Positions 9,889-16,162 of a stretch of DNA of 57,127 nt are shown piece after piece. This DNA is from a virus. Taxonomy: Duplodnaviria; Heunggongvirae; Uroviricota; Caudoviricetes. The stretch spans positions 1 to 57,127 of IMG/VR virus record IMGVR_UViG_2597489870_000006. One strand, written 5' to 3'. Position 1 is the first letter of the stretch, and each line of letters opens with the position of its first letter. The notes under the pieces are model-generated. The model saw only the letters and a list, made by a program, of their open reading frames with translations. It had not been told where the DNA came from and ran no database searches. The position numbers were made by a program, and so were the translations under genes.

Positions 9889-10493
9889 TTAGTGCGTCAC
9901 TGGTGCTTCTGGGATGCCGTTTTCGTTTAGTTCGGCAATAAAGCTGTTGTGAAGATCGGCAAGCACTTCTCGCCCAAACGAAGTGAGTGTTCCCTGTTCG
10001 ACATCGAACATGTTGCTGTAAAAAATGATGGCATTCTTTGTTCCGACATCAACACCATATTTCTCGATCATTGCGCCCTCAATGTTGTTTGCCATAGCGA
10101 GGCGCTCTGCTACTGGATACAGCGGCATGGCGACGATGCCATTGGAATAAACAGAAACCACGGAATGATTGCCACTGTCATCAATAATGCTGACGGTGCC
10201 GTTTTCCTTTCTCATTTCATTGATTAATGCTGTTGCTATCAGCCAGCGCCACATAATCACGTGATGCTGTGATGTGTAATCGAAATATCCCTGGTTGCCG
10301 CCACTGGCAATAGCGAGATGTATAAACATGCCTTCATCTGGTTTATCGTCATAATCCCCGGCATCCAGACGATTTACGGCATCAATATATGAGACGGTCT
10401 CAACGCGTTCTGTCATGCCATTGTTGCTGCGGTGCATGATGTTTACGCCGTCAGGCGTTGCTTCTGCATGGAAGGTTAAGAAATTATTCATGT
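9889..10493 (-). CDS. hypothetical protein (201 aa from ATG at 10493)
   Basis: ATG at 10493 with SD gaggcg, overlapping the upstream stop; the track's longer ORF starts inside the upstream gene. Confidence 0.45.
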
Positions 10494-10705
10494 TTCGCCT
10501 CGCCTGAATGATTCTGTAACTCATATTTGCCCAACAATTCGTCCGCTTCCTGAATAGCTTCTGGTACGCCATTGAGCAGTGACATAACCGCGCCAATCAT
10601 TAACTTGTCTCTGTTGCTTGGGCTGGCCCCTTCAAGCCAGAACCCTAAAACAGTCTGAACCTGTTCGATGCGACATTGCGCTTCAATGAGCTGGATGTTG
10701 GTCAT
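10484..10705 (-). CDS. small hypothetical protein (73 aa)
   Basis: One of a chain of small overlapping genes typical of phage regulatory regions. Confidence 0.4.
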   Translation of the reverse strand: MTNIQLIEAQCRIEQVQTVLGFWLEGASPSNRDKLMIGAVMSLLNGVPEAIQEADELLGKYELQNHSGEAKHE

Positions 10706-10965
10706 TTCGCACTCTCCACATCGATTAAACTGATATCTATCAGGGAGGTAACTTTTTGTAGCCAGCTATTGATTACTGTCGCCTGTTCCCCTCCCACCGA
10801 TGGAAGAATCTCATTCATCACATGAACCAGACCTGTGCGCGCTCTGGTAAGCCGTTCAGTCGTGCGATCTGCAAGAGTGAATGTGTCTGGATATGGCTCT
10901 TCACGGCTCAGCAATGATTCAATTTCCAGCTCACACGGATGACGATAAATTAAGTTGATATTCAT
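10702..10965 (-). CDS. small hypothetical protein (87 aa)
   Basis: Start/stop overlap with neighbours. Confidence 0.4.
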   Translation of the reverse strand: MNINLIYRHPCELEIESLLSREEPYPDTFTLADRTTERLTRARTGLVHVMNEILPSVGGEQATVINSWLQKVTSLIDISLIDVESAK

Positions 10966-11156
10966 TTTTCACCCCCAAGAATTACCAGCTCTGCACGGGC
11001 ATCGTTAACCAAAGATGAGCACGCTTTAATCGCATCCACGACATCAGTAGCGTCCATTTCTTCAGCCGAAAGACTGACAGCAACCAGGACAGCCGCTGCT
11101 TGCTCGATTAATTGAAGTGCGGACGTAAGGCGAGGGGTATTAATTGAGTTATTCAT
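10962..11156 (-). CDS. small hypothetical protein (64 aa)
   Basis: Start/stop overlap with neighbours. Confidence 0.4.
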   Translation of the reverse strand: MNNSINTPRLTSALQLIEQAAAVLVAVSLSAEEMDATDVVDAIKACSSLVNDARAELVILGGEK

Positions 11157-11366
11157 TGGTTGCCCCCGTTTTTACTGGCATTTCGCCACCTTCCAGCAGG
11201 AAATGAACGTCACGAACGGCGAGATCCAATATCGCGAGTAACGCCTTCAGTCTTTCGTCTCGTGAGGGAGAGTTGCTCACCAGAATGTCGTTAATCACTT
11301 CTGTCAGTGTGATGATCTGGCTTGTGCGTTCGAGGGGATCCATATGCACATCGTAGTTTTTAATCA
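11149..11366 (-). CDS. small hypothetical protein (72 aa)
   Basis: Internal ATG at 11366 preceded by strong SD GGAGGTG; more plausible than the 355-aa read-through ORF. Confidence 0.4.
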
Positions 11367-11554
11367 TGTGCCACCTCCATGCGGATACGACCAGCAAAAA
11401 AGCAGATGTGATCGCGCACCAGAGAACGGCGAGCATCGCGTTCAGACTCGGCAGCAATATGATGAATTTTGGCGGTAATTGTCGGGCAATCGCGGCGAAC
11501 TGCGGCGATAATCCAGATAAATTGCGTTTTTTGGGTAGGGGTAGTAGCCAGCAT
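11360..11554 (-). CDS. small hypothetical protein (64 aa)
   Basis: ATG at 11554 preceded by SD GAAGGAGG 7 nt upstream; sits downstream of a structured leader. Confidence 0.45.
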   Translation of the reverse strand: MLATTPTQKTQFIWIIAAVRRDCPTITAKIHHIAAESERDARRSLVRDHICFFAGRIRMEVAHD

Positions 11555-11574
11555 GTGGCAGCCTCCTTCAGATA

Positions 11575-11650
11575 GCAGGTTACGCTACCACCGGAAACGC
11601 CAATTTCGCTGGTGGTAGCCCAGACAGGGTTGGCGTAACCGGCTCTGAAG
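11575..11650 (-). ncRNA. Structured RNA leader (nested inverted repeats pairing with the downstream SD)
   Basis: On the minus strand CTTCAGA...GGTTACGC...CTACCACC...GGTGGTAG...GCGTAACC...TCTGAAG-GAGG; the outer arm includes the SD of the 11554 gene. Confidence 0.35.
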
Positions 11651-12216
11651 GATACCGGCGCTTCCGAAGAAGCCCCCGCCTGAGCCACCATTGATTGACA
11701 AAGGCGCTGGATTATACACCAACGCCCAAAAAATGGGTGAGTCAGACCTACGACATAAAAAAAGACGCTCGGCGCGTCATATGTCGCCTTCAGAATTTTC
11801 AGGACGCCAATCCCGGCACCCGTTTTATGAGGTGCCTTATAACCATAAACCGTGTTGCCGCATAACGGCAAGCTCTTTTTTATGGACTCCGAAAACTCAC
11901 TATTGGAAGAACCAGAAGCACAGTACATCGCGCTCATTTCGTTAACGTCACGCGCGTGGACGAAGGTTTTTGTGGAGTCACTACACGAGCAGAGAAAGCC
12001 ATCTACGACCAGAAATTCTCTGGCATAGCCGCTGACCTTCTCAACGCTAACACCATCGACCGTAATTTCTGACATAGTTAAGGCATCCGCTCCTACCACC
12101 AGCAAATGATAAACTTTGCTTGTATCTGCTGTATTAATGTCTGACTTTGCTGTCATATTGCTGGATTTTGGCGACATACCAGCCAGTGAAAATATCTTCT
12201 TCTGGGCGGTTAGCAT
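11650..12216 (-). CDS. hypothetical protein, N-terminal part of the 355-aa track ORF (true 3' end uncertain)
   Basis: Protein-like N-terminal about 190 aa; the frame stays open through the structured region and the two SD-bearing small genes, so it is probably not one gene. Confidence 0.3.
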
Positions 12217-12392
12217 TTGTTAACCTCCGCGAACTCCTTCATGAAACGTGCCAGCGGTTGTACGCATGGCGATTGATACCCGTCGCGATAAAACGTCACT
12301 CGGTTGTGAGACACGCTTTCGACAGTAACGAGTGCTCCGTGGGCATCTTTGTAGCGTTTTTGAGGTTGTGGTGTTCCTGTCGGCTTAAACAT
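12210..12392 (-). CDS. small hypothetical protein (60 aa)
   Basis: ATG at 12392 overlapping the antirepressor stop. Confidence 0.35.
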   Translation of the reverse strand: MFKPTGTPQPQKRYKDAHGALVTVESVSHNRVTFYRDGYQSPCVQPLARFMKEFAEVNKC

Positions 12393-13218
12393 GGACCGCC
12401 TCCAGACGCTTGGCGAGCCAGCGTTGCGACAGGCGGGTGAGTTCTCCTTTGCGCTGCTCATATTCCATGCCCATATCAATTAACGTGATATTGGTGCTTT
12501 CGAGATATGAGAGGTGCTCAAGCTGTTCTGCGTTCATATGGTCGCGAGGTTCGCCAGAATAGCCATTTATCCGCGCCCACTGCTTAGCAGTTAGCCCACC
12601 AAGAACGATACGAGAAATCATATTGCTCTCGTTTGTGTAGTGGTGTTGCTGCGTCGTTTTCCCCTGCTCGGCACGGGCCATATTCAGCGCATCGCACATT
12701 GGCTTAAAGTTGTTTGCGGCACTAATACGGGCTTTTAGCTGGCGACGATAGCGGGCGGCGATTTCAGGCACGCTACGCTGTAATTCTTCCTCGCACTGGA
12801 TGAAATAACGACGGATAGCGCGACCCTGATCATTGCGTTCGATCATTGCCAGTTCTTTCGCCATTCCGACACTTAACAGATAGTCTTTGCCGGGTCTGCC
12901 AGAGTGCTTAATCTTGCTGTAAGCCGCGCCATTCGGGCTTTTCCCCAAATTTGGGGAAATTGTTTTATGGACTGAGTAATCGTGCCCAATGGTGAAGTCA
13001 TATTCAGAGATGCGATCAGTGATCCATGTAGAGAAGTCTTTTCCCACGCCCAACGCTTTGTGTAACGCTTTTGCGCTAACAATATTGGTTTCACGCCCAC
13101 CGATATGACCAGGAATAACCGGGACAATTGCGGCAAATTCATTACCGTTAATTGTGCCCAGAGAGGCGTTCAGATGAGGGGCAGCCTCAGAAATTAATCT
13201 GCTTTTTTCGATGTTCAT
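12385..13218 (-). CDS. phage antirepressor (AntA/KilAC-like, 277 aa)
   Basis: N-terminal SAKALHKALGVGKDFSTWITDRISEYDF resembles the AntA/Ant N-terminal domain. Confidence 0.6.
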   Translation of the reverse strand: MNIEKSRLISEAAPHLNASLGTINGNEFAAIVPVIPGHIGGRETNIVSAKALHKALGVGKDFSTWITDRISEYDFTIGHDYSVHKTISPNLGKSPNGAAYSKIKHSGRPGKDYLLSVGMAKELAMIERNDQGRAIRRYFIQCEEELQRSVPEIAARYRRQLKARISAANNFKPMCDALNMARAEQGKTTQQHHYTNESNMISRIVLGGLTAKQWARINGYSGEPRDHMNAEQLEHLSYLESTNITLIDMGMEYEQRKGELTRLSQRWLAKRLEAVHV

Positions 13219-13230
13219 TTTCAGTCTCCG

Positions 13231-13662
13231 TTAGGCGGCGTTAAACGCGTCCGGGTAGAGTTTCAGAATGTCGGCAATTTCCTGCTGAGAAAGTCCGTTG
13301 TGATCATTTATGTTCGCAAGATGGTTAACATGAGTGATCACTTTCAGAACATCACCACGGCAGGAGAAACGGTAGCGAAGGTGTGTTCCGATACCATCAG
13401 GATTCTTTTCGTCGATACGCTCCAGAGTGATTCCAAGCTGGCGTTCTAACTCTGTTGCATAGTTACGACCAGAAGACAGACGGCAGTAGCGAAGAATGTC
13501 ATTTTCTGTCCATCCCTCTATACCAGTACGCAGCATATAGACTCTGGCACGATGCTTTTTCGGTGTGCGCTTTGGTGCTTGAAGGGATTTTGTCAGGGGC
13601 GTAACATCAGATACGCGAATATCTGAATTAGCCGCCTGTAATGGGCGGTTTTTCTTTTCCAT
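13231..13662 (-). CDS. hypothetical protein (143 aa)
   Basis: ORF immediately downstream of alpA with ATGA-type overlap. Confidence 0.45.
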   Translation of the reverse strand: MEKKNRPLQAANSDIRVSDVTPLTKSLQAPKRTPKKHRARVYMLRTGIEGWTENDILRYCRLSSGRNYATELERQLGITLERIDEKNPDGIGTHLRYRFSCRGDVLKVITHVNHLANINDHNGLSQQEIADILKLYPDAFNAA

Positions 13663-13865
13663 CAGGCCACCTCGTCTCTAGATTCTAATATACACTTCTC
13701 AATCCATTCATCTATTTCAGACTCAACAAAAGCAATTGCCCGACTTCCAATTTTTACCTGTTTAGGGAACCTCCCCTGACTAATAAGACGATAAATCCAT
13801 GCTTTGCTATAACCAGTTCGCCTTTGAACTTCAGAGAGACGAATTAATGAATTGTAATTAGCCAT
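13662..13865 (-). CDS. alpA: AlpA-family transcriptional regulator / excision activator (67 aa)
   Basis: HTH pattern IRLSEVQRRTGYSKAWIYRLISQGRFPKQVKIGSRAIAFVESEIDEWI matches the AlpA family; sits next to int. Confidence 0.75.
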   Translation of the reverse strand: MANYNSLIRLSEVQRRTGYSKAWIYRLISQGRFPKQVKIGSRAIAFVESEIDEWIEKCILESRDEVA

Positions 13866-14124
13866 TTATTAATATCCTGTACTAATGACGCAATAACTCC
13901 CTCCTGCAACGAATGGCGAGAGTTTTATTTGCATCAAATGTCGAATACGCCAAAGACCACAATATGAAAAACATATTGCGGTCTTTTATAAAAGATAGTC
14001 AGATTGTTTTGGTTTGTTTGCTCCACAAGGGTAGAGCTACCCTGCATTTCGGCAGGATCACGCTATTAGGCGTGACATCCAGTAGTTTTAAAGAACGCCC
14101 TTTTTCAGGGCATGGTGGGCAGGC

Positions 14125-14430
14125 AAGAGAGCAATTGCGCTTTGTCAGCGCCGTAGATTCATATTTGAATCATTGTATGTTTCCCGATAGAAATCTATCG
14201 GTCACTGCGGGACGAACCATCCCGCCCACATCAATGTTAAAGAGCAATTGCGCTTTGTCAGCGATCCGCAGCCTCATGGATGAATCATTACATGCATTGT
14301 AAAGGTGCATGTATCCCTATTCTTTCCTGCATCAGGAAAGCACCAAAGGCTGTTAAAGAGCATCCAGCTTTTCAGCTGCGTAGAAGATTCCATCTTCGTT
14401 GTTAAAAGAGCGATTGCCCTTCTCCAGGGC
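14125..14430. repeat. Four copies of a GTTAAAGAGC-plus-hairpin repeat in the int-alpA intergenic region
   Basis: AGAGCAATTGCGCTTTGTCAGCG twice exactly (14127-14155, 14229-14262) plus two degenerate copies near 14353 and 14397; irregular spacing. Confidence 0.5.
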
Positions 14431-14516
14431 TAACTGTTAAATAGTAATCCTCTGTGAGTTTTTATCAATCTACTCCCCTATACTTTAGTAAACCTCTGTA
14501 TACTTGTCCAGTTGTT

Positions 14517-15731
14517 TCATGCGTGTTTTTCAAACACCATATGCACCACATTTCCGCCATGCTCGAGAGAATCCATATAGTCGGCATACCATTGAAGCAT
14601 CTCCCGCCTTCCATCCAGATATTGCGCATGGTTGTATGTGCCACGAATTGAGTTCTTATCAACGTGAGCGAGCTGCGTTTCTATCCACGCGGTGTTATAG
14701 CCCTGCTCATGCAAAATCGTACTCATAGTGTGCCGGAACCCATGACCAGTTACACGTCCAGCGTAGCCAATGCGCTTAAACACTTGGTTTATGCTGGCCT
14801 CACTCATTGTTTTCCTTGGATCATTGCGCCCGGGAAACATAAGAGGGTAATTGCCTGTTATTTCTCTAATCTTCCCAATAAGCGAAAGAGCCTGCTCAGA
14901 CAATGGCACAATATGAGGCCGCCGCATTTTCATACGTGAAGCGGGTATCTCCCAGAGAGCCTTGTTGAAATCAATTTCATCCCATAATGCGCCACGTAGT
15001 TCGCCAGTCCGCAAGCCTGTGATAATCAGTAGACGAGCCGCCATAACAACCAATGCGCTTCCTGAGTAACTGGACAATGCCTTGAAAAAATCAGGTAATT
15101 CTTTGGCTGTAAGGAAAGGGTAATGATTAGATTCATGGCCTTGCATCGCGCTAGTAAGGTCTGGTGCAGGGTTATACTCTGCGCGACCAGTGACTATTGC
15201 ATAGCGGAAAACTTCCCCGCACCGCTGCCTCACTTTTTTGGCTTTTTCTGTAGCACCGCGCCCCTCGATGCGCCGCAGCACATTCAGAAGTTCAAGTGGT
15301 TTGATTTCGGCGATTGGTTTTTTGCCAATGTAAGGGAACACATCTTTGTTGAAGGCTTCGAGGATGTCTGAAGCATAACCAGCAGACCATTTTTTTAATT
15401 TGCTGCTGTGCCACTCAAGGGCAATATCTTTGAAGGTGTTGTTTAACTGCGTTTCCCGGGCAATCTTTTCCTCTCGTTTCGCTTCCATCGGATCGATACC
15501 ACCAGCGATACCTCTTTTCGCATCTTCACGTTTTGCCCGAGCATCGGCTAGAGTAACCTCAGGATACACACCTAGTGCCAATAGCTTCTCTTTACCAGCC
15601 ACACGATATTTAAGTCGCCAGTATTTACCTCCATTAGGTTTTACCAAGAGATACAAACCGCCACCATCGGCCAGCTTGTAAGCCTTCTCTTTTGGCTTGG
15701 CTGTGTCTATTTGACGGGCATTGAGTTTCAC
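14517..15731 (-). CDS. int: tyrosine integrase, P4 family (404 aa)
   Basis: P4-type integrase N-terminus MKLNARQIDTAKPKEKAYKLADGGGLYLLVKP and C-terminal R...HGFRHT...Y catalytic region; GTG start with SD GGAGG; next to att core. Confidence 0.9.
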   Translation of the reverse strand: MKLNARQIDTAKPKEKAYKLADGGGLYLLVKPNGGKYWRLKYRVAGKEKLLALGVYPEVTLADARAKREDAKRGIAGGIDPMEAKREEKIARETQLNNTFKDIALEWHSSKLKKWSAGYASDILEAFNKDVFPYIGKKPIAEIKPLELLNVLRRIEGRGATEKAKKVRQRCGEVFRYAIVTGRAEYNPAPDLTSAMQGHESNHYPFLTAKELPDFFKALSSYSGSALVVMAARLLIITGLRTGELRGALWDEIDFNKALWEIPASRMKMRRPHIVPLSEQALSLIGKIREITGNYPLMFPGRNDPRKTMSEASINQVFKRIGYAGRVTGHGFRHTMSTILHEQGYNTAWIETQLAHVDKNSIRGTYNHAQYLDGRREMLQWYADYMDSLEHGGNVVHMVFEKHA

Positions 15732-15799
15732 TTGGGGGTACCTCCACTAAACCGAACAGCAAATACCCCCATAAGTACCCCCATCTGACCGTAGATTTT

Positions 15800-15885
15800 G
15801 AGGGACTTTAGTAGACGTCAAAAGACGAACGGAGCTTTAATACGCGGATTATAAGGGGTTTTGAAAGACTTTAGTAGACTTGGGG
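15800..15885. promoter_or_regulatory. Candidate integrase arm-type binding sites (direct repeats GACTTTAGTAGAC)
   Basis: Two copies about 60 bp apart between the int start and the att core. Confidence 0.4.
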
Positions 15886-15896
15886 AGATGTTTGAA

Positions 15897-15942
15897 TGGT
15901 GCCTATAATAGGAGTCGAACCTACGACCTTCGCATTACGAAT
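15897..15942 (-). repeat. 46-bp att core: copy of the thrW 3' end (one mismatch)
   Basis: tggtgccTataataggagtcgaacctacgaccttcgcattacgaat matches 55684-55729 except one base. Confidence 0.85.
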
Positions 15943-16162
15943 TATAAGAATCCGCTTCTAATTCAAAGCATTACCCCATCAACACTGCGCTCACACGTCC
16001 CACCACATCAAAACATGTAAAGCCTTGCAAGCCATTGTGAGGCCTTATGTGTCTCAGTTTTGTCCCACTACGACCTGCACAGAAAATAAGAAAATAGCGG
16101 TGATATCAAACAGTACAGAAGTCTTTTTTCTTTCAAATGGAGAAACTGATTAACCCGTTTAA

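What the first reader, a model, noticed from the sequence alone, without database searches (positions are those of the whole stretch)
11575..11650. Nested stem-loop element that pairs with the ribosome-binding site of a small gene in the satellite-like island
Seen in sequence (minus strand): three nested inverted repeats with the outermost arm CTTCAGA pairing to TCTGAAG immediately upstream of the SD GAAGGAGG of the 11554 gene. It lies inside a 355-aa open frame that therefore is probably not one gene. Established knowledge: P4 immunity is mediated by a small structured CI RNA acting on leader sequences. Inference: an RNA-based immunity or translational-control element.
Basis: partly seen in the sequence, partly recalled or inferred. 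Interest (0 to 1): 0.45.

Follow-up and report, generated by a model that had tools for sequence, protein, structure and literature searches.

The report
P4-type antisense immunity RNA and targets
The inverted repeats belong to an already known phage and satellite immunity system: a small C4/CI antisense RNA whose two exposed segments match the ribosome-binding site of a small cell-division-inhibitor gene, so the finding is real but ordinary.

Summary
The three nested inverted repeats are in the sequence as described and are not chance. They are not one hairpin element. They are the 3' half of a C4/CI antisense RNA (Rfam RF01695, 11608-11695 minus strand, 79.9 bits) plus its downstream target. 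An IsrK/SeqA-type leader (RF01394, 11758-11835) lies upstream and carries a second copy of the target. The small gene at 11554 is an Icd/Kil-like cell-division inhibitor. Phage P4 has the same layout, but both recognition boxes differ there and so do all four target boxes, which implies a different immunity specificity. In 114 distinct related loci each RNA matches its own targets and not those of other loci. The 355-aa frame (RefSeq "ash family protein", equivalent to P4 eta) stays open in every P4-like locus, and length changes between the upstream target and the RNA are multiples of three. Its amino-acid sequence is not under protein-type selection across the RNA region. It is therefore best read as a translated frame with RNA genes and icd embedded in it. 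The system is already known from P4, P1/P7, Gifsy-1 and chromosomal islands. Interest is low.

The parts
11842..11871 (-). PLE-like sigma-70 promoter inside the long ORF: -35 TTGCCG (11871-11866), 18-nt spacer, -10 TATGGT (11847-11842). The -10 ends 7 nt before the first base of the IsrK match.
   Evidence: It aligns column for column with the P4 sequence upstream of its isrK match. TTGC...TATAGT is 90-100% conserved at this position in 83 P4-like loci. The generic promoter scan did not flag it, so function is inferred.
11758..11835 (-). IsrK/SeqA-type leader RNA. It has two 5' hairpins, a single-stranded linker and an intrinsic terminator (stem 11778-11764 followed by a run of seven U).
   Evidence: Rfam RF01394, 67.8 bits (gathering score 50), full length. 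The terminator was found. P4 has the same element.
11804..11810 (-). a1 box UUGGCGU, in the loop of the second IsrK hairpin, complementary to a'.
   Evidence: Repeats I10 and D7. In 113 of 114 loci the locus's own a'/a1 complementarity is at least 7 nt.
11787..11794 (-). b1 box UCUGAAGG, in the IsrK linker, complementary to b'.
   Evidence: Repeats I13 and D6. In 100 of 114 loci the locus's own b'/b1 complementarity is at least 8 nt.
11608..11695 (-). C4/CI-type antisense RNA gene: a 17-bp outer stem (11690-11674 with 11629-11613), hairpin 1 with a UUCG loop, hairpin 2 with a 12-nt loop, a single-stranded junction and a conserved CC 3' of the stem.
   Evidence: Rfam RF01695, 79.9 bits (gathering score 45), model positions 1-87. 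The minimum-energy fold reproduces the structure. All stems are 100% paired in 60 loci, with two-sided changes at 7 outer-stem pairs and 4 hairpin-1 pairs.
11644..11652 (-). b' box UCCUUCAGA, in the loop of hairpin 2.
   Evidence: repeats I8, I13. There are 25 variants among related loci, each matching its own b1 and b2.
11630..11636 (-). a' box ACGCCAA, in the single-stranded junction 3' of hairpin 2.
   Evidence: Repeats I2 and I10. a'/a2 is 100% paired in 60 loci, with 6 of 7 pairs changed on both sides, and the loci were not selected for this pairing.
11597..11603 (-). a2 box UUGGCGU, shown in the loop of a hairpin formed by the 3' arm of C4 (11619-11611) and GGUGGUAGC (11592-11584).
   Evidence: (repeats I2, I9). 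The inner helix is 99.2% paired with 3 pairs changed on both sides.
11562..11572 (-). b2 box UCUGAAGGA (11572-11564), overlapping the Shine-Dalgarno sequence GAAGGAGG (11569-11562) of the icd-like gene.
   Evidence: (repeat I8). In 98 of 114 loci the locus's own b'/b2 complementarity is at least 8 nt, against about 0.5% of cross-locus pairs reaching 7 nt.
11360..11554 (-). Icd/Kil-like small gene (64 aa), the regulated gene. It is not annotated in RefSeq.
   Evidence: NCBIfam NF033153 phage_ICD_like, E 1e-19. It is 40% identical to P4 Kil. dN/dS is 0.19 in its own frame, with differences by codon position 7/4/19. It is absent from the annotation.
11149..12216 (-). Eta/Ash-like 355-aa open frame, which contains the promoter, IsrK, C4, the targets, icd (read in the +1 frame) and the next gene. 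Its start overlaps the stop of the DUF4222 gene and has GGAGG 7 nt upstream.
   Evidence: Pfam PF10554 hits residues 124-232, which correspond to 11521-11847. RefSeq calls it 'ash family protein'. There are 388 homologues. The frame is open in every P4-like locus, and the length classes between b1 and C4 differ by multiples of three. There is no third-position excess, and dN/dS is 0.7-0.9 over the RNA module and 1.5 over icd.
11149..11367 (-). Separate 72-aa gene that forms the C-terminus of the long frame. Its ATG overlaps the icd stop (ATGATTAA), with GGAGG 6 nt upstream.
   Evidence: M284 is invariant, and the module after it swaps between homologues. dN/dS is 0.19.

Best explanation
This is the immunity region of a P4-like island, built like P4 PLE-seqA-cI-seqC-kil and P1 immI a1b1-c4-a2b2-icd.

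What the sequence and comparisons show:
- A promoter-like site inside the long ORF lies just upstream of an IsrK/SeqA leader that carries target boxes a1 and b1 and ends in an intrinsic terminator.
- A C4/CI RNA gene follows, with a conserved fold and two exposed boxes (b' in a hairpin loop, a' in the junction).
- Each locus's boxes match its own targets.
- The downstream gene is Icd-like, and its Shine-Dalgarno sequence lies inside b2.
- The long frame is kept open, but its protein sequence is not conserved.

What is inferred from P4 and P1 work:
- Read-through transcripts carry the C4/CI precursor, which is trimmed to a stable RNA of about 80 nt. In P1 and P4 the 5' end is made by RNase P.
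- The mature RNA pairs through a' and b' with a1/b1 in the leader and with a2/b2 on nascent transcripts.
- This blocks translation of the Icd-like gene, and transcription then stops before the downstream replication genes (the primase at 7528-9876). The island stays quiescent and is immune to elements of the same specificity.
- On induction, transcription arrives from upstream in the AlpA operon. Ribosomes then translate the Eta/Ash-like frame through the leader, C4 and the targets, which overrides pairing and termination.
For: - Family matches: Rfam C4 at 79.9 bits and isrK at 67.8 bits, both full length. P4 itself gives the same pair at the same spacing, with an Icd-like Kil.
- P4 comparison: in the window-P4 alignment, a', b' and all four target boxes change together.
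- Specificity: 114 distinct loci carry 25 b' and 18 a' variants, and each matches its own targets (own-locus median 8 and 7 nt, cross-locus median 4).
- Structure: C4 stems and a'/a2 are 100% paired with many two-sided changes.
- Targets: the composite a-b motif occurs only at a1b1, a2b2 and, in antisense, inside C4.
- Regulated gene: Icd-like by NF033153, under purifying selection.
- Promoter: conserved across relatives; terminator found.
- Long frame: no stops over the module in frame 0 in 59 stacked P4-like loci, against 2-5 per locus in the other frames, and frame 0 spans the module in every P4-like class. Length classes between b1 and C4 differ by 6, 36, 45 and 48 nt.
- Literature: IsrK corresponds to seqA and C4 to CI (PMC3632133). 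The roles of eta and kil, and C4/isrK hits in chromosomal islands, are described in PMC10111431. P1-like RCS47 has isrK, C4 and then ant.
Against: - There are no transcript, processing or termination data for this island. RNase P cleavage, Rho involvement and action in trans all come from P4 and P1.
- The generic promoter scan did not call the PLE-like site.
- The c4-a1b1 model (RF03163) does not hit the window at E <= 0.1.
- In a 301-nt read-through RNA the minimum-energy fold is the cis nested structure, not C4, so the balance between cis and trans action is open.
- No sid, psu or delta genes were found, so this is not a complete P4.
- icd is out of frame with the long ORF, unlike kil within eta in P4.
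Confidence: 0.9

Rival explanations
1. A purely cis-acting attenuator. In the read-through mRNA, the region from b' to b2 folds into one nested stem-loop that hides the Shine-Dalgarno sequence. No processed trans-acting RNA is needed.
For: The nested fold is predicted for 11540-11650 (-45.8 kcal/mol, z -3.0). It is part of the minimum-energy fold of the 301-nt leader. It is only 4.3 kcal/mol less stable than the C4 fold in a 161-nt context. In Gifsy-1, alternative cis structures of the isrK-orf45 transcript control translation (PMC4825925).
Against: The middle helix is only 58% paired across relatives. The C4 three-way junction is 100% paired with covariation and scores 79.9 bits, which a cis attenuator does not require. 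A second target copy lies upstream. CI and c4 act in trans in P4 and P1 (literature). This fold probably coexists as an alternative conformer rather than replacing the trans mechanism.
Confidence: 0.07
2. The region is simply protein-coding. The 355-aa 'ash family protein' is a conventional regulator, and the inverted repeats are incidental.
For: RefSeq annotation. Pfam PF10554 at E 6e-34. PHROG families labelled transcriptional repressor or regulator. 388 homologous ORFs, some full length at 48% identity. The frame is kept open.
Against: There is no third-codon-position excess over isrK, the spacer, C4 or the target. dN/dS is 0.71-0.92 over the RNA module and 1.54 over icd in this frame, against 0.19 for icd in its own frame. 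The Pfam domain coincides exactly with the RNA genes. The RNA-type covariation is strong. The same RNA module occurs with no spanning ORF in P1-like and other phage contexts (0 of 14 loci). The P4 cI 'protein' is historically an RNA.
Confidence: 0.03
3. An IsrK-type activating switch dominates, as in Gifsy-1. The short IsrK-like RNA carries a1 and b1, acts in trans on the long transcript or titrates C4, and so turns on the downstream genes. On this reading the locus is mainly a stress-responsive activator rather than an immunity repressor.
For: The isrK match is full length, with its own terminator. Its a1 and b1 boxes are complementary to C4. Gifsy-1 IsrK activates translation of orf45 and anrP in trans (PMC4825925). 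IsrK-like elements of P4-like prophages are required in S. Typhi transposon-insertion screens (PMC3632133).
Against: The island's layout (an Icd-like gene, then replication genes and a primase) matches P4, not the Gifsy-1 anrP/antQ cascade. The two readings are compatible rather than exclusive.
Confidence: 0.25

Closest known systems
Satellite phage P4 immunity: PLE promoter, seqA, CI RNA (cI), seqC, the eta/kil nested genes, then alpha primase
   Same: The order and spacing of promoter, IsrK/seqA, C4/CI, target and Icd-like Kil are the same. Both have a long open frame running through the RNA genes. Both have an AlpA-family gene upstream and a P4 alpha-type primase downstream.
   Different: The recognition boxes differ. 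Here a' is ACGCCAA and b' is CCUUCAGA; in P4 they are UUCUCAC and CCUGUGAA, so a different immunity type is expected. The spacer between isrK and C4 is 45 nt shorter. icd starts at +122 and is out of frame with the long ORF, whereas P4 kil starts at +123 and is nested in frame. The long frame has an extra 123-aa N-terminus and runs on into the next gene. AntA and DUF4222 genes precede it. No sid, psu or delta genes were seen.
Phage P1/P7 immI operon: a1b1, c4 antisense RNA, a2b2, icd, ant (founding members of Rfam RF01695)
   Same: The same RNA family. The same logic of two boxes pairing with duplicated targets, the downstream copy covering the icd ribosome-binding site. The P1-like phage RCS47 shows isrK, C4 and then ant.
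   Different: In P1 the distal gene is the antirepressor Ant, and no ORF spans the RNA in the non-satellite contexts. Here the distal genes are for replication.
Salmonella Gifsy-1 isrK-orf45-anrP-isrJ locus (PMC4825925)
   Same: An IsrK leader with a terminator and read-through. A conserved RNA (STnc1160) lies under a short ORF whose amino-acid sequence is not conserved. Translation through that ORF is coupled to the next gene.
   Different: In Gifsy-1 the experimentally shown effect is activation by IsrK in trans, and the output is an antirepressor/antiterminator cascade. Here there is no anrP or antQ, and the ORF through the RNA is 355 aa rather than 45.
Immunity RNAs in the 'Bro zone' of Gram-negative phage-inducible chromosomal islands (PMC10111431)
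   Same: That paper reports Rfam C4 and isrK hits inside Phage_ASH/Bro-network genes of int-alpA-primase islands in Enterobacteriaceae. This is the situation seen here.
   Different: No difference in kind was found. This island was not checked against their list.

Membership tests
C4 antisense RNA / P4 CI RNA (Rfam RF01695) | Covariance-model score above the curated gathering threshold over the full model | tested here: met
   79.9 bits against a gathering score of 45, model positions 1-87, E 4e-14.
C4 antisense RNA / P4 CI RNA (Rfam RF01695) | Three-way junction: a long outer stem, a UUCG-type hairpin, and a second hairpin with a large loop | tested here: met
   The minimum-energy fold reproduces it. 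All 27 pairs are 100% paired in 60 loci, and 11 of them change on both sides.
C4 antisense RNA / P4 CI RNA (Rfam RF01695) | Exposed a' and b' segments complementary to a downstream a2/b2 target that covers the ribosome-binding site of the next gene | tested here: met
   b' pairs with b2 over 9 nt that overlap GAAGGAGG, and a' pairs with a2 over 7 nt. The family-wide comparison of own-locus and cross-locus pairs is. a'/a2 covariation is.
C4 antisense RNA / P4 CI RNA (Rfam RF01695) | A second, upstream copy of the target (a1/b1 in P1, seqA in P4) | tested here: met
   a1 is at 11804-11810 and b1 at 11787-11794.
C4 antisense RNA / P4 CI RNA (Rfam RF01695) | The downstream regulated gene is icd/kil-like | tested here: met
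   NF033153 at E 1e-19. 40% identity to P4 Kil.
C4 antisense RNA / P4 CI RNA (Rfam RF01695) | The mature RNA is cut from a longer transcript (5' end made by RNase P), acts in trans, and causes premature termination or a translation block | not testable with these tools
   Only sequence hints are available: a tRNA-acceptor-like stem followed by an invariant CC (columns 84-85 of alignment A3). No expression data could be reached.
IsrK / SeqA leader (Rfam RF01394) | Covariance-model score above the gathering threshold, with a terminal intrinsic terminator | tested here: met
   67.8 bits against a gathering score of 50, full length. The terminator stem at 11778-11764 is followed by a run of seven T.
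c4-a1b1 motif (Rfam RF03163) | Covariance-model score above the gathering threshold | tested here: not met
   No hit at E <= 0.1 in 9000-16000. P4 itself scores 44.1, below the gathering score of 46.7. The overlapping isrK model covers the same element.
P4-like satellite (the whole element) | P4-type integrase, an AlpA/Vis regulator and an alpha primase-helicase | tested here: met
   The integrase has Arm-DNA-bind_3, Phage_int_M and Phage_integrase domains. Phage_AlpA is present. The primase has Zn_Ribbon_Prim, Toprim_3 and DUF5906 domains.
P4-like satellite (the whole element) | Capsid-size and late-control genes sid, psu and delta | tested here: inconclusive
   None is annotated, and no Pfam hit of that kind was found among the 10 ORFs scanned. 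P22-type injection genes follow the primase instead. Not every small ORF was scanned.
Pfam PF10554 Phage_ASH, taken as a true protein family | Protein-type (codon-periodic, low dN/dS) conservation of the domain | tested here: not met
   The profile matches (E 6e-34). Variability by codon position is flat, and dN/dS is 0.71-0.92. The frame is nevertheless kept open.

The most novel reading that the evidence does not exclude
In P4-like islands the 'Ash/Eta' frame may be selected only to stay open. On this reading it is a translated leader whose ribosome traffic overrides the RNA immunity switch, and its amino-acid sequence does not matter. Pfam PF10554 would then be a protein family whose conservation comes entirely from the embedded IsrK and C4 RNA genes. 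In this lineage the frame also reads icd in the +1 frame and fuses to the next gene, which hides the real Icd-like gene from annotation pipelines.
Probability: 0.45. Interest if true: 0.35.

Novelty: already known. Interest (0 to 1): 0.15.

Why it matters
The value is mainly for annotation. In RefSeq the locus is one 355-aa "ash family protein". It actually holds a promoter, two RNA genes, two target sites, an unannotated Icd-like toxic gene and a separate 72-aa gene. Recognising the C4/IsrK module shows which boxes set immunity specificity. Here they are ACGCCAA and CCUUCAGA, which differ from P4, so one can predict which co-resident satellites or phages would be cross-immune. The comparison also gives a clean example of a frame kept open without protein-level selection. 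Nothing here changes the current understanding of the mechanism.

Tried and rejected
- tblastn of the 64-aa Icd-like protein against the phage collection found nothing at E <= 1e-3. The protein is too short, so NCBIfam and a pairwise BLASTP against P4 Kil were used instead.
- A global MAFFT alignment of about 1.1 kb around C4 from 114 loci ran to 2710 columns and was uninformative, because the flanks are mosaic. It was replaced by stacking loci on fixed anchors.
- A strict sequence anchor for the isrK terminator caught too few loci.
- The primary P4 papers (Sabbattini 1995; Forti 1999) are not held. Their content is cited second-hand from PMC10111431, PMC3632133 and PMC4825925.
- A test for selection keeping the +1 frame open over icd was weak. 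Chance alone gives P = 0.22 under the island's codon usage.
- The other two TCTGAAGG sites in the window (25356 and 44942) lack the a box and are at chance level.
- An ATG just after b1 starts a 10-codon mini-ORF in the window and aligns with an ATG in P4, but it is not conserved in the family consensus.

Full report
**Observation.** The minus strand of 11540-11700 reads ...GGUGGCUCAGGCGGGGGCUUCUUCGGAAGCGCCGGUAUCCUUCAGAGCCGGUUACGCCAACCCUGUCUGGGCUACCACCAGCGAAAUUGGCGUUUCCGGUGGUAGCGUAACCUGCUAUCUGAAGGAGGCUGCCACAUG.
- outer: 11564-11572 / 11644-11652, 9 nt, 100%;
- middle: 11574-11585 / 11633-11644, 12 nt, 92%;
- inner: 11584-11592 / 11611-11619, 9 nt, 100%.

The outer 3' arm overlaps the Shine-Dalgarno sequence GAAGGAGG of the 64-aa ORF that starts at 11554. 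All three lie inside the 355-aa ORF 11149-12216.

**What it is.** A scan of the whole window against Rfam at gathering thresholds gives a full-length C4 antisense RNA (RF01695, 11608-11695 minus strand, 79.9 bits against a gathering score of 45). It also gives a full-length isrK RNA (RF01394, 11758-11835 minus strand, 67.8 bits against 50).

Its partner at the Shine-Dalgarno sequence is the b2 target.
- a second complementarity, between the junction segment ACGCCAA (a') and UUGGCGU (a2, 11597-11603);
- a complete upstream duplicate of both targets inside the isrK element (a1 at 11804-11810, b1 at 11787-11794).

The composite motif TTGGCGT-N(5-35)-TCTGAAGG occurs three times in the 57-kb window: at a1b1, at a2b2 and, in antisense, inside C4. 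None is expected by chance. The 64-aa ORF matches NCBIfam NF033153, "host cell division inhibitor Icd-like" (E 1e-19).

**Origin and context.** The window is 100% identical to E. coli ETEC H10407 (NC_017633.1), and 1224 of 5426 complete E. coli genomes carry related sequence. RefSeq annotates the 355-aa ORF as "ash family protein". It annotates no RNA gene and no icd gene.

The island encodes a P4-type integrase, AlpA, AntA, DUF4222, the long ORF, several small ORFs and a P4 alpha-type primase. The coding genes from AlpA to the primase overlap or nearly abut each other.

**Comparison with P4.** P4 itself (X51522) gives isrK (60.8 bits), c4-a1b1 (44.1 bits) and C4 (74.9 bits) in the same order. 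The historical "cI gene product" ORF contains the Icd-like domain. The window's Icd-like protein is 40% identical to P4 Kil.

In the pairwise alignment the promoter region, both RNA scaffolds and the Shine-Dalgarno sequence are conserved, while the boxes change together. The window has a' ACGCCAA, a1/a2 UUGGCGU, b' CCUUCAGA and b1/b2 UCUGAAGG. P4 has UUCUCAC, GUGAGAA, CCUGUGAA and UUCACAGG. This is the pattern expected of elements with different immunity types.

**Family-wide test.** A scan of IMG/VR for the C4 core, with the loop left free, returned 120 loci. They give 114 distinct regions, carrying 25 b' variants and 18 a' variants in 47 combinations.

| Pairing | Own-locus exact complementarity | Loci meeting it |
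|---|---|---|
| b'/b2 | at least 8 nt | 98 of 114 |
| b'/b1 | at least 8 nt | 100 of 114 |
| a'/a2 | 7 nt | 109 of 114 |
| a'/a1 | at least 7 nt | 113 of 114 |

Cross-locus pairs have a median of 4 nt (5 for a'/a1).

I then aligned 60 loci. They were selected for an exact b2 match, so the b'/b2 helix is uninformative there. On this alignment the C4 stems are 100% paired, with 11 pairs changed on both sides. a'/a2 is 100% paired, with 6 of 7 pairs changed on both sides.

It is 99% paired with compensatory changes. The middle one is 58% paired, which is close to the values for the slid-partner control, so it is specific to this lineage or due to chance.

**Cis or trans.** In a 161-nt context the C4 fold plus a separate target hairpin has -76.5 kcal/mol. 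In the 301-nt leader the minimum-energy structure uses the cis fold. The nested hairpin is therefore a plausible alternative conformer of the read-through RNA, as described for Gifsy-1 isrK-orf45 (PMC4825925). The structure that evolution conserves is C4.

**The 355-aa frame.** The outcome is split.

Evidence that the frame is maintained:
- 388 homologous ORFs exist, all carrying PF10554. Some are full length (329-355 aa) in E. coli, Klebsiella and Salmonella, down to 48% identity.
- In the sample of loci found through their DNA, which is unbiased with respect to ORFs, this frame spans the module in every P4-like class. In the 59 loci that could be stacked it has no stop from isrK to the Shine-Dalgarno sequence, against 2-5 stops per locus in the other frames.
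- The length classes between b1 and C4 differ by 6, 36, 45 and 48 nt.
- The start has GGAGG 7 nt upstream and overlaps the stop of the preceding gene.
- In P4 the equivalent ORF, eta, is translated from the late transcript, and its translation prevents termination (Forti 1999, as summarised in PMC10111431).

Evidence that it is not a conventional protein:
- The Pfam Phage_ASH match (residues 124-232) maps to 11521-11847, which is exactly isrK, C4 and the target.
- Variability is flat across codon positions in isrK, the spacer, C4 and the target, whereas icd is strongly periodic in its own frame.
- Against a Klebsiella island, dN/dS is 0.71 over the RNA module and 1.54 over icd in the long frame. 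It is 0.19 for icd in its own frame and 0.19 for the last 72 aa.
- Those last 72 aa have their own Shine-Dalgarno sequence and an invariant start at M284.
- In phage contexts other than P4-like satellites, no ORF spans the RNA module (0 of 14 loci). Two further phages outside that sample carry the same RNA pair: the P1-like RCS47 and SfV.

My reading is that the frame is kept translatable, but what is conserved is RNA. It contains at least five separate functional units.

**Differences from P4.**
- icd starts at +122 from the C4 core, which is out of frame with the long ORF. In P4 and most relatives it starts at +123 and is nested in frame. That the +1 frame stays open over icd is not remarkable (P = 0.22).
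- The long frame has an extra N-terminal 123 aa under weak constraint (dN/dS 0.5-0.6).
- No sid, psu or delta genes were found.
- P22-type injection genes follow the primase.

**Known or new.** C4/c4 (P1, P7), CI/seqA/seqC (P4), IsrK (Gifsy-1) and their equivalence are in the literature (PMC2864571, PMC3632133, PMC4825925). Hits of the C4 and isrK models inside Phage_ASH/Bro genes of int-alpA-primase islands are explicitly reported (PMC10111431). The finding is real and correctly interpreted in outline, but it is already known. I rate interest at 0.15.

Noticed in passing
window 11360-11554 (-): The Icd/Kil-like gene is absent from the RefSeq annotation of H10407 and from gene calls on related contigs. 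The 355-aa 'ash family protein' ORF, which reads the same bases in another frame, masks it. The icd frame is the one under purifying selection (dN/dS 0.19, against 1.54 in the ash frame).
   Followed up: yes
window 11521-11847 (-), i.e. residues 124-232 of the 355-aa ORF: The Pfam PF10554 (Phage_ASH) domain, and several PHROG families labelled 'transcriptional repressor' or 'regulator', coincide with the isrK, C4 and target RNA module. They show no codon-type conservation, so the amino-acid conservation of these families looks RNA-driven.
   Followed up: partly
loci L002-L122 (IMG/VR), e.g. L006 and L080 compared with the window: The two specificity boxes reassort independently. There are 25 b' and 18 a' variants in 47 combinations. 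For example, the window's b' occurs with a' ACGCCAA in L006 and with UUUCCAC in L080. This suggests recombination between the boxes creates new immunity types.
   Followed up: partly
L123 2518-2728 (P1-like phage RCS47); L124 2003-2191 (SfV orf37 'immunity region'); L013, L017, L018, L033, L062: The same isrK plus C4 pair occurs in P1-like and other phage contexts. There the spacing between b1 and the C4 core is much shorter (64-86 nt), and no open frame spans the module in the sampled contigs. The open frame therefore appears to be specific to P4-like satellites.
   Followed up: partly
window 2168-5625 (-): Downstream of the primase lie a P22-type injection/translocase gene (PF16928; RefSeq marks it a pseudogene with an internal stop) and a 705-aa ORF with no Pfam match. 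These may be phage late genes captured by the island.
   Followed up: no
window 14517-15731 (-) and 55684-55759 (-): The island's integrase (Arm-DNA-bind_3 type) has no tRNA gene next to it. The only tRNA in the window, tRNA-Thr(CGU), is 40 kb away. The attachment site and the island's limits were not determined.
   Followed up: no
L127/L128 (Klebsiella), 3743-11302: A syntenic Klebsiella island next to der/engA carries int, AlpA, a 144-aa ORF, AntA, Bro-N, DUF4222, Ash (333 aa), small ORFs and a primase. Its Icd-like gene is in the same out-of-frame arrangement (phase 2). Further downstream it carries PerC and, in L128, an SSB gene, plus a gene with a superinfection-immunity domain.
   Followed up: partly
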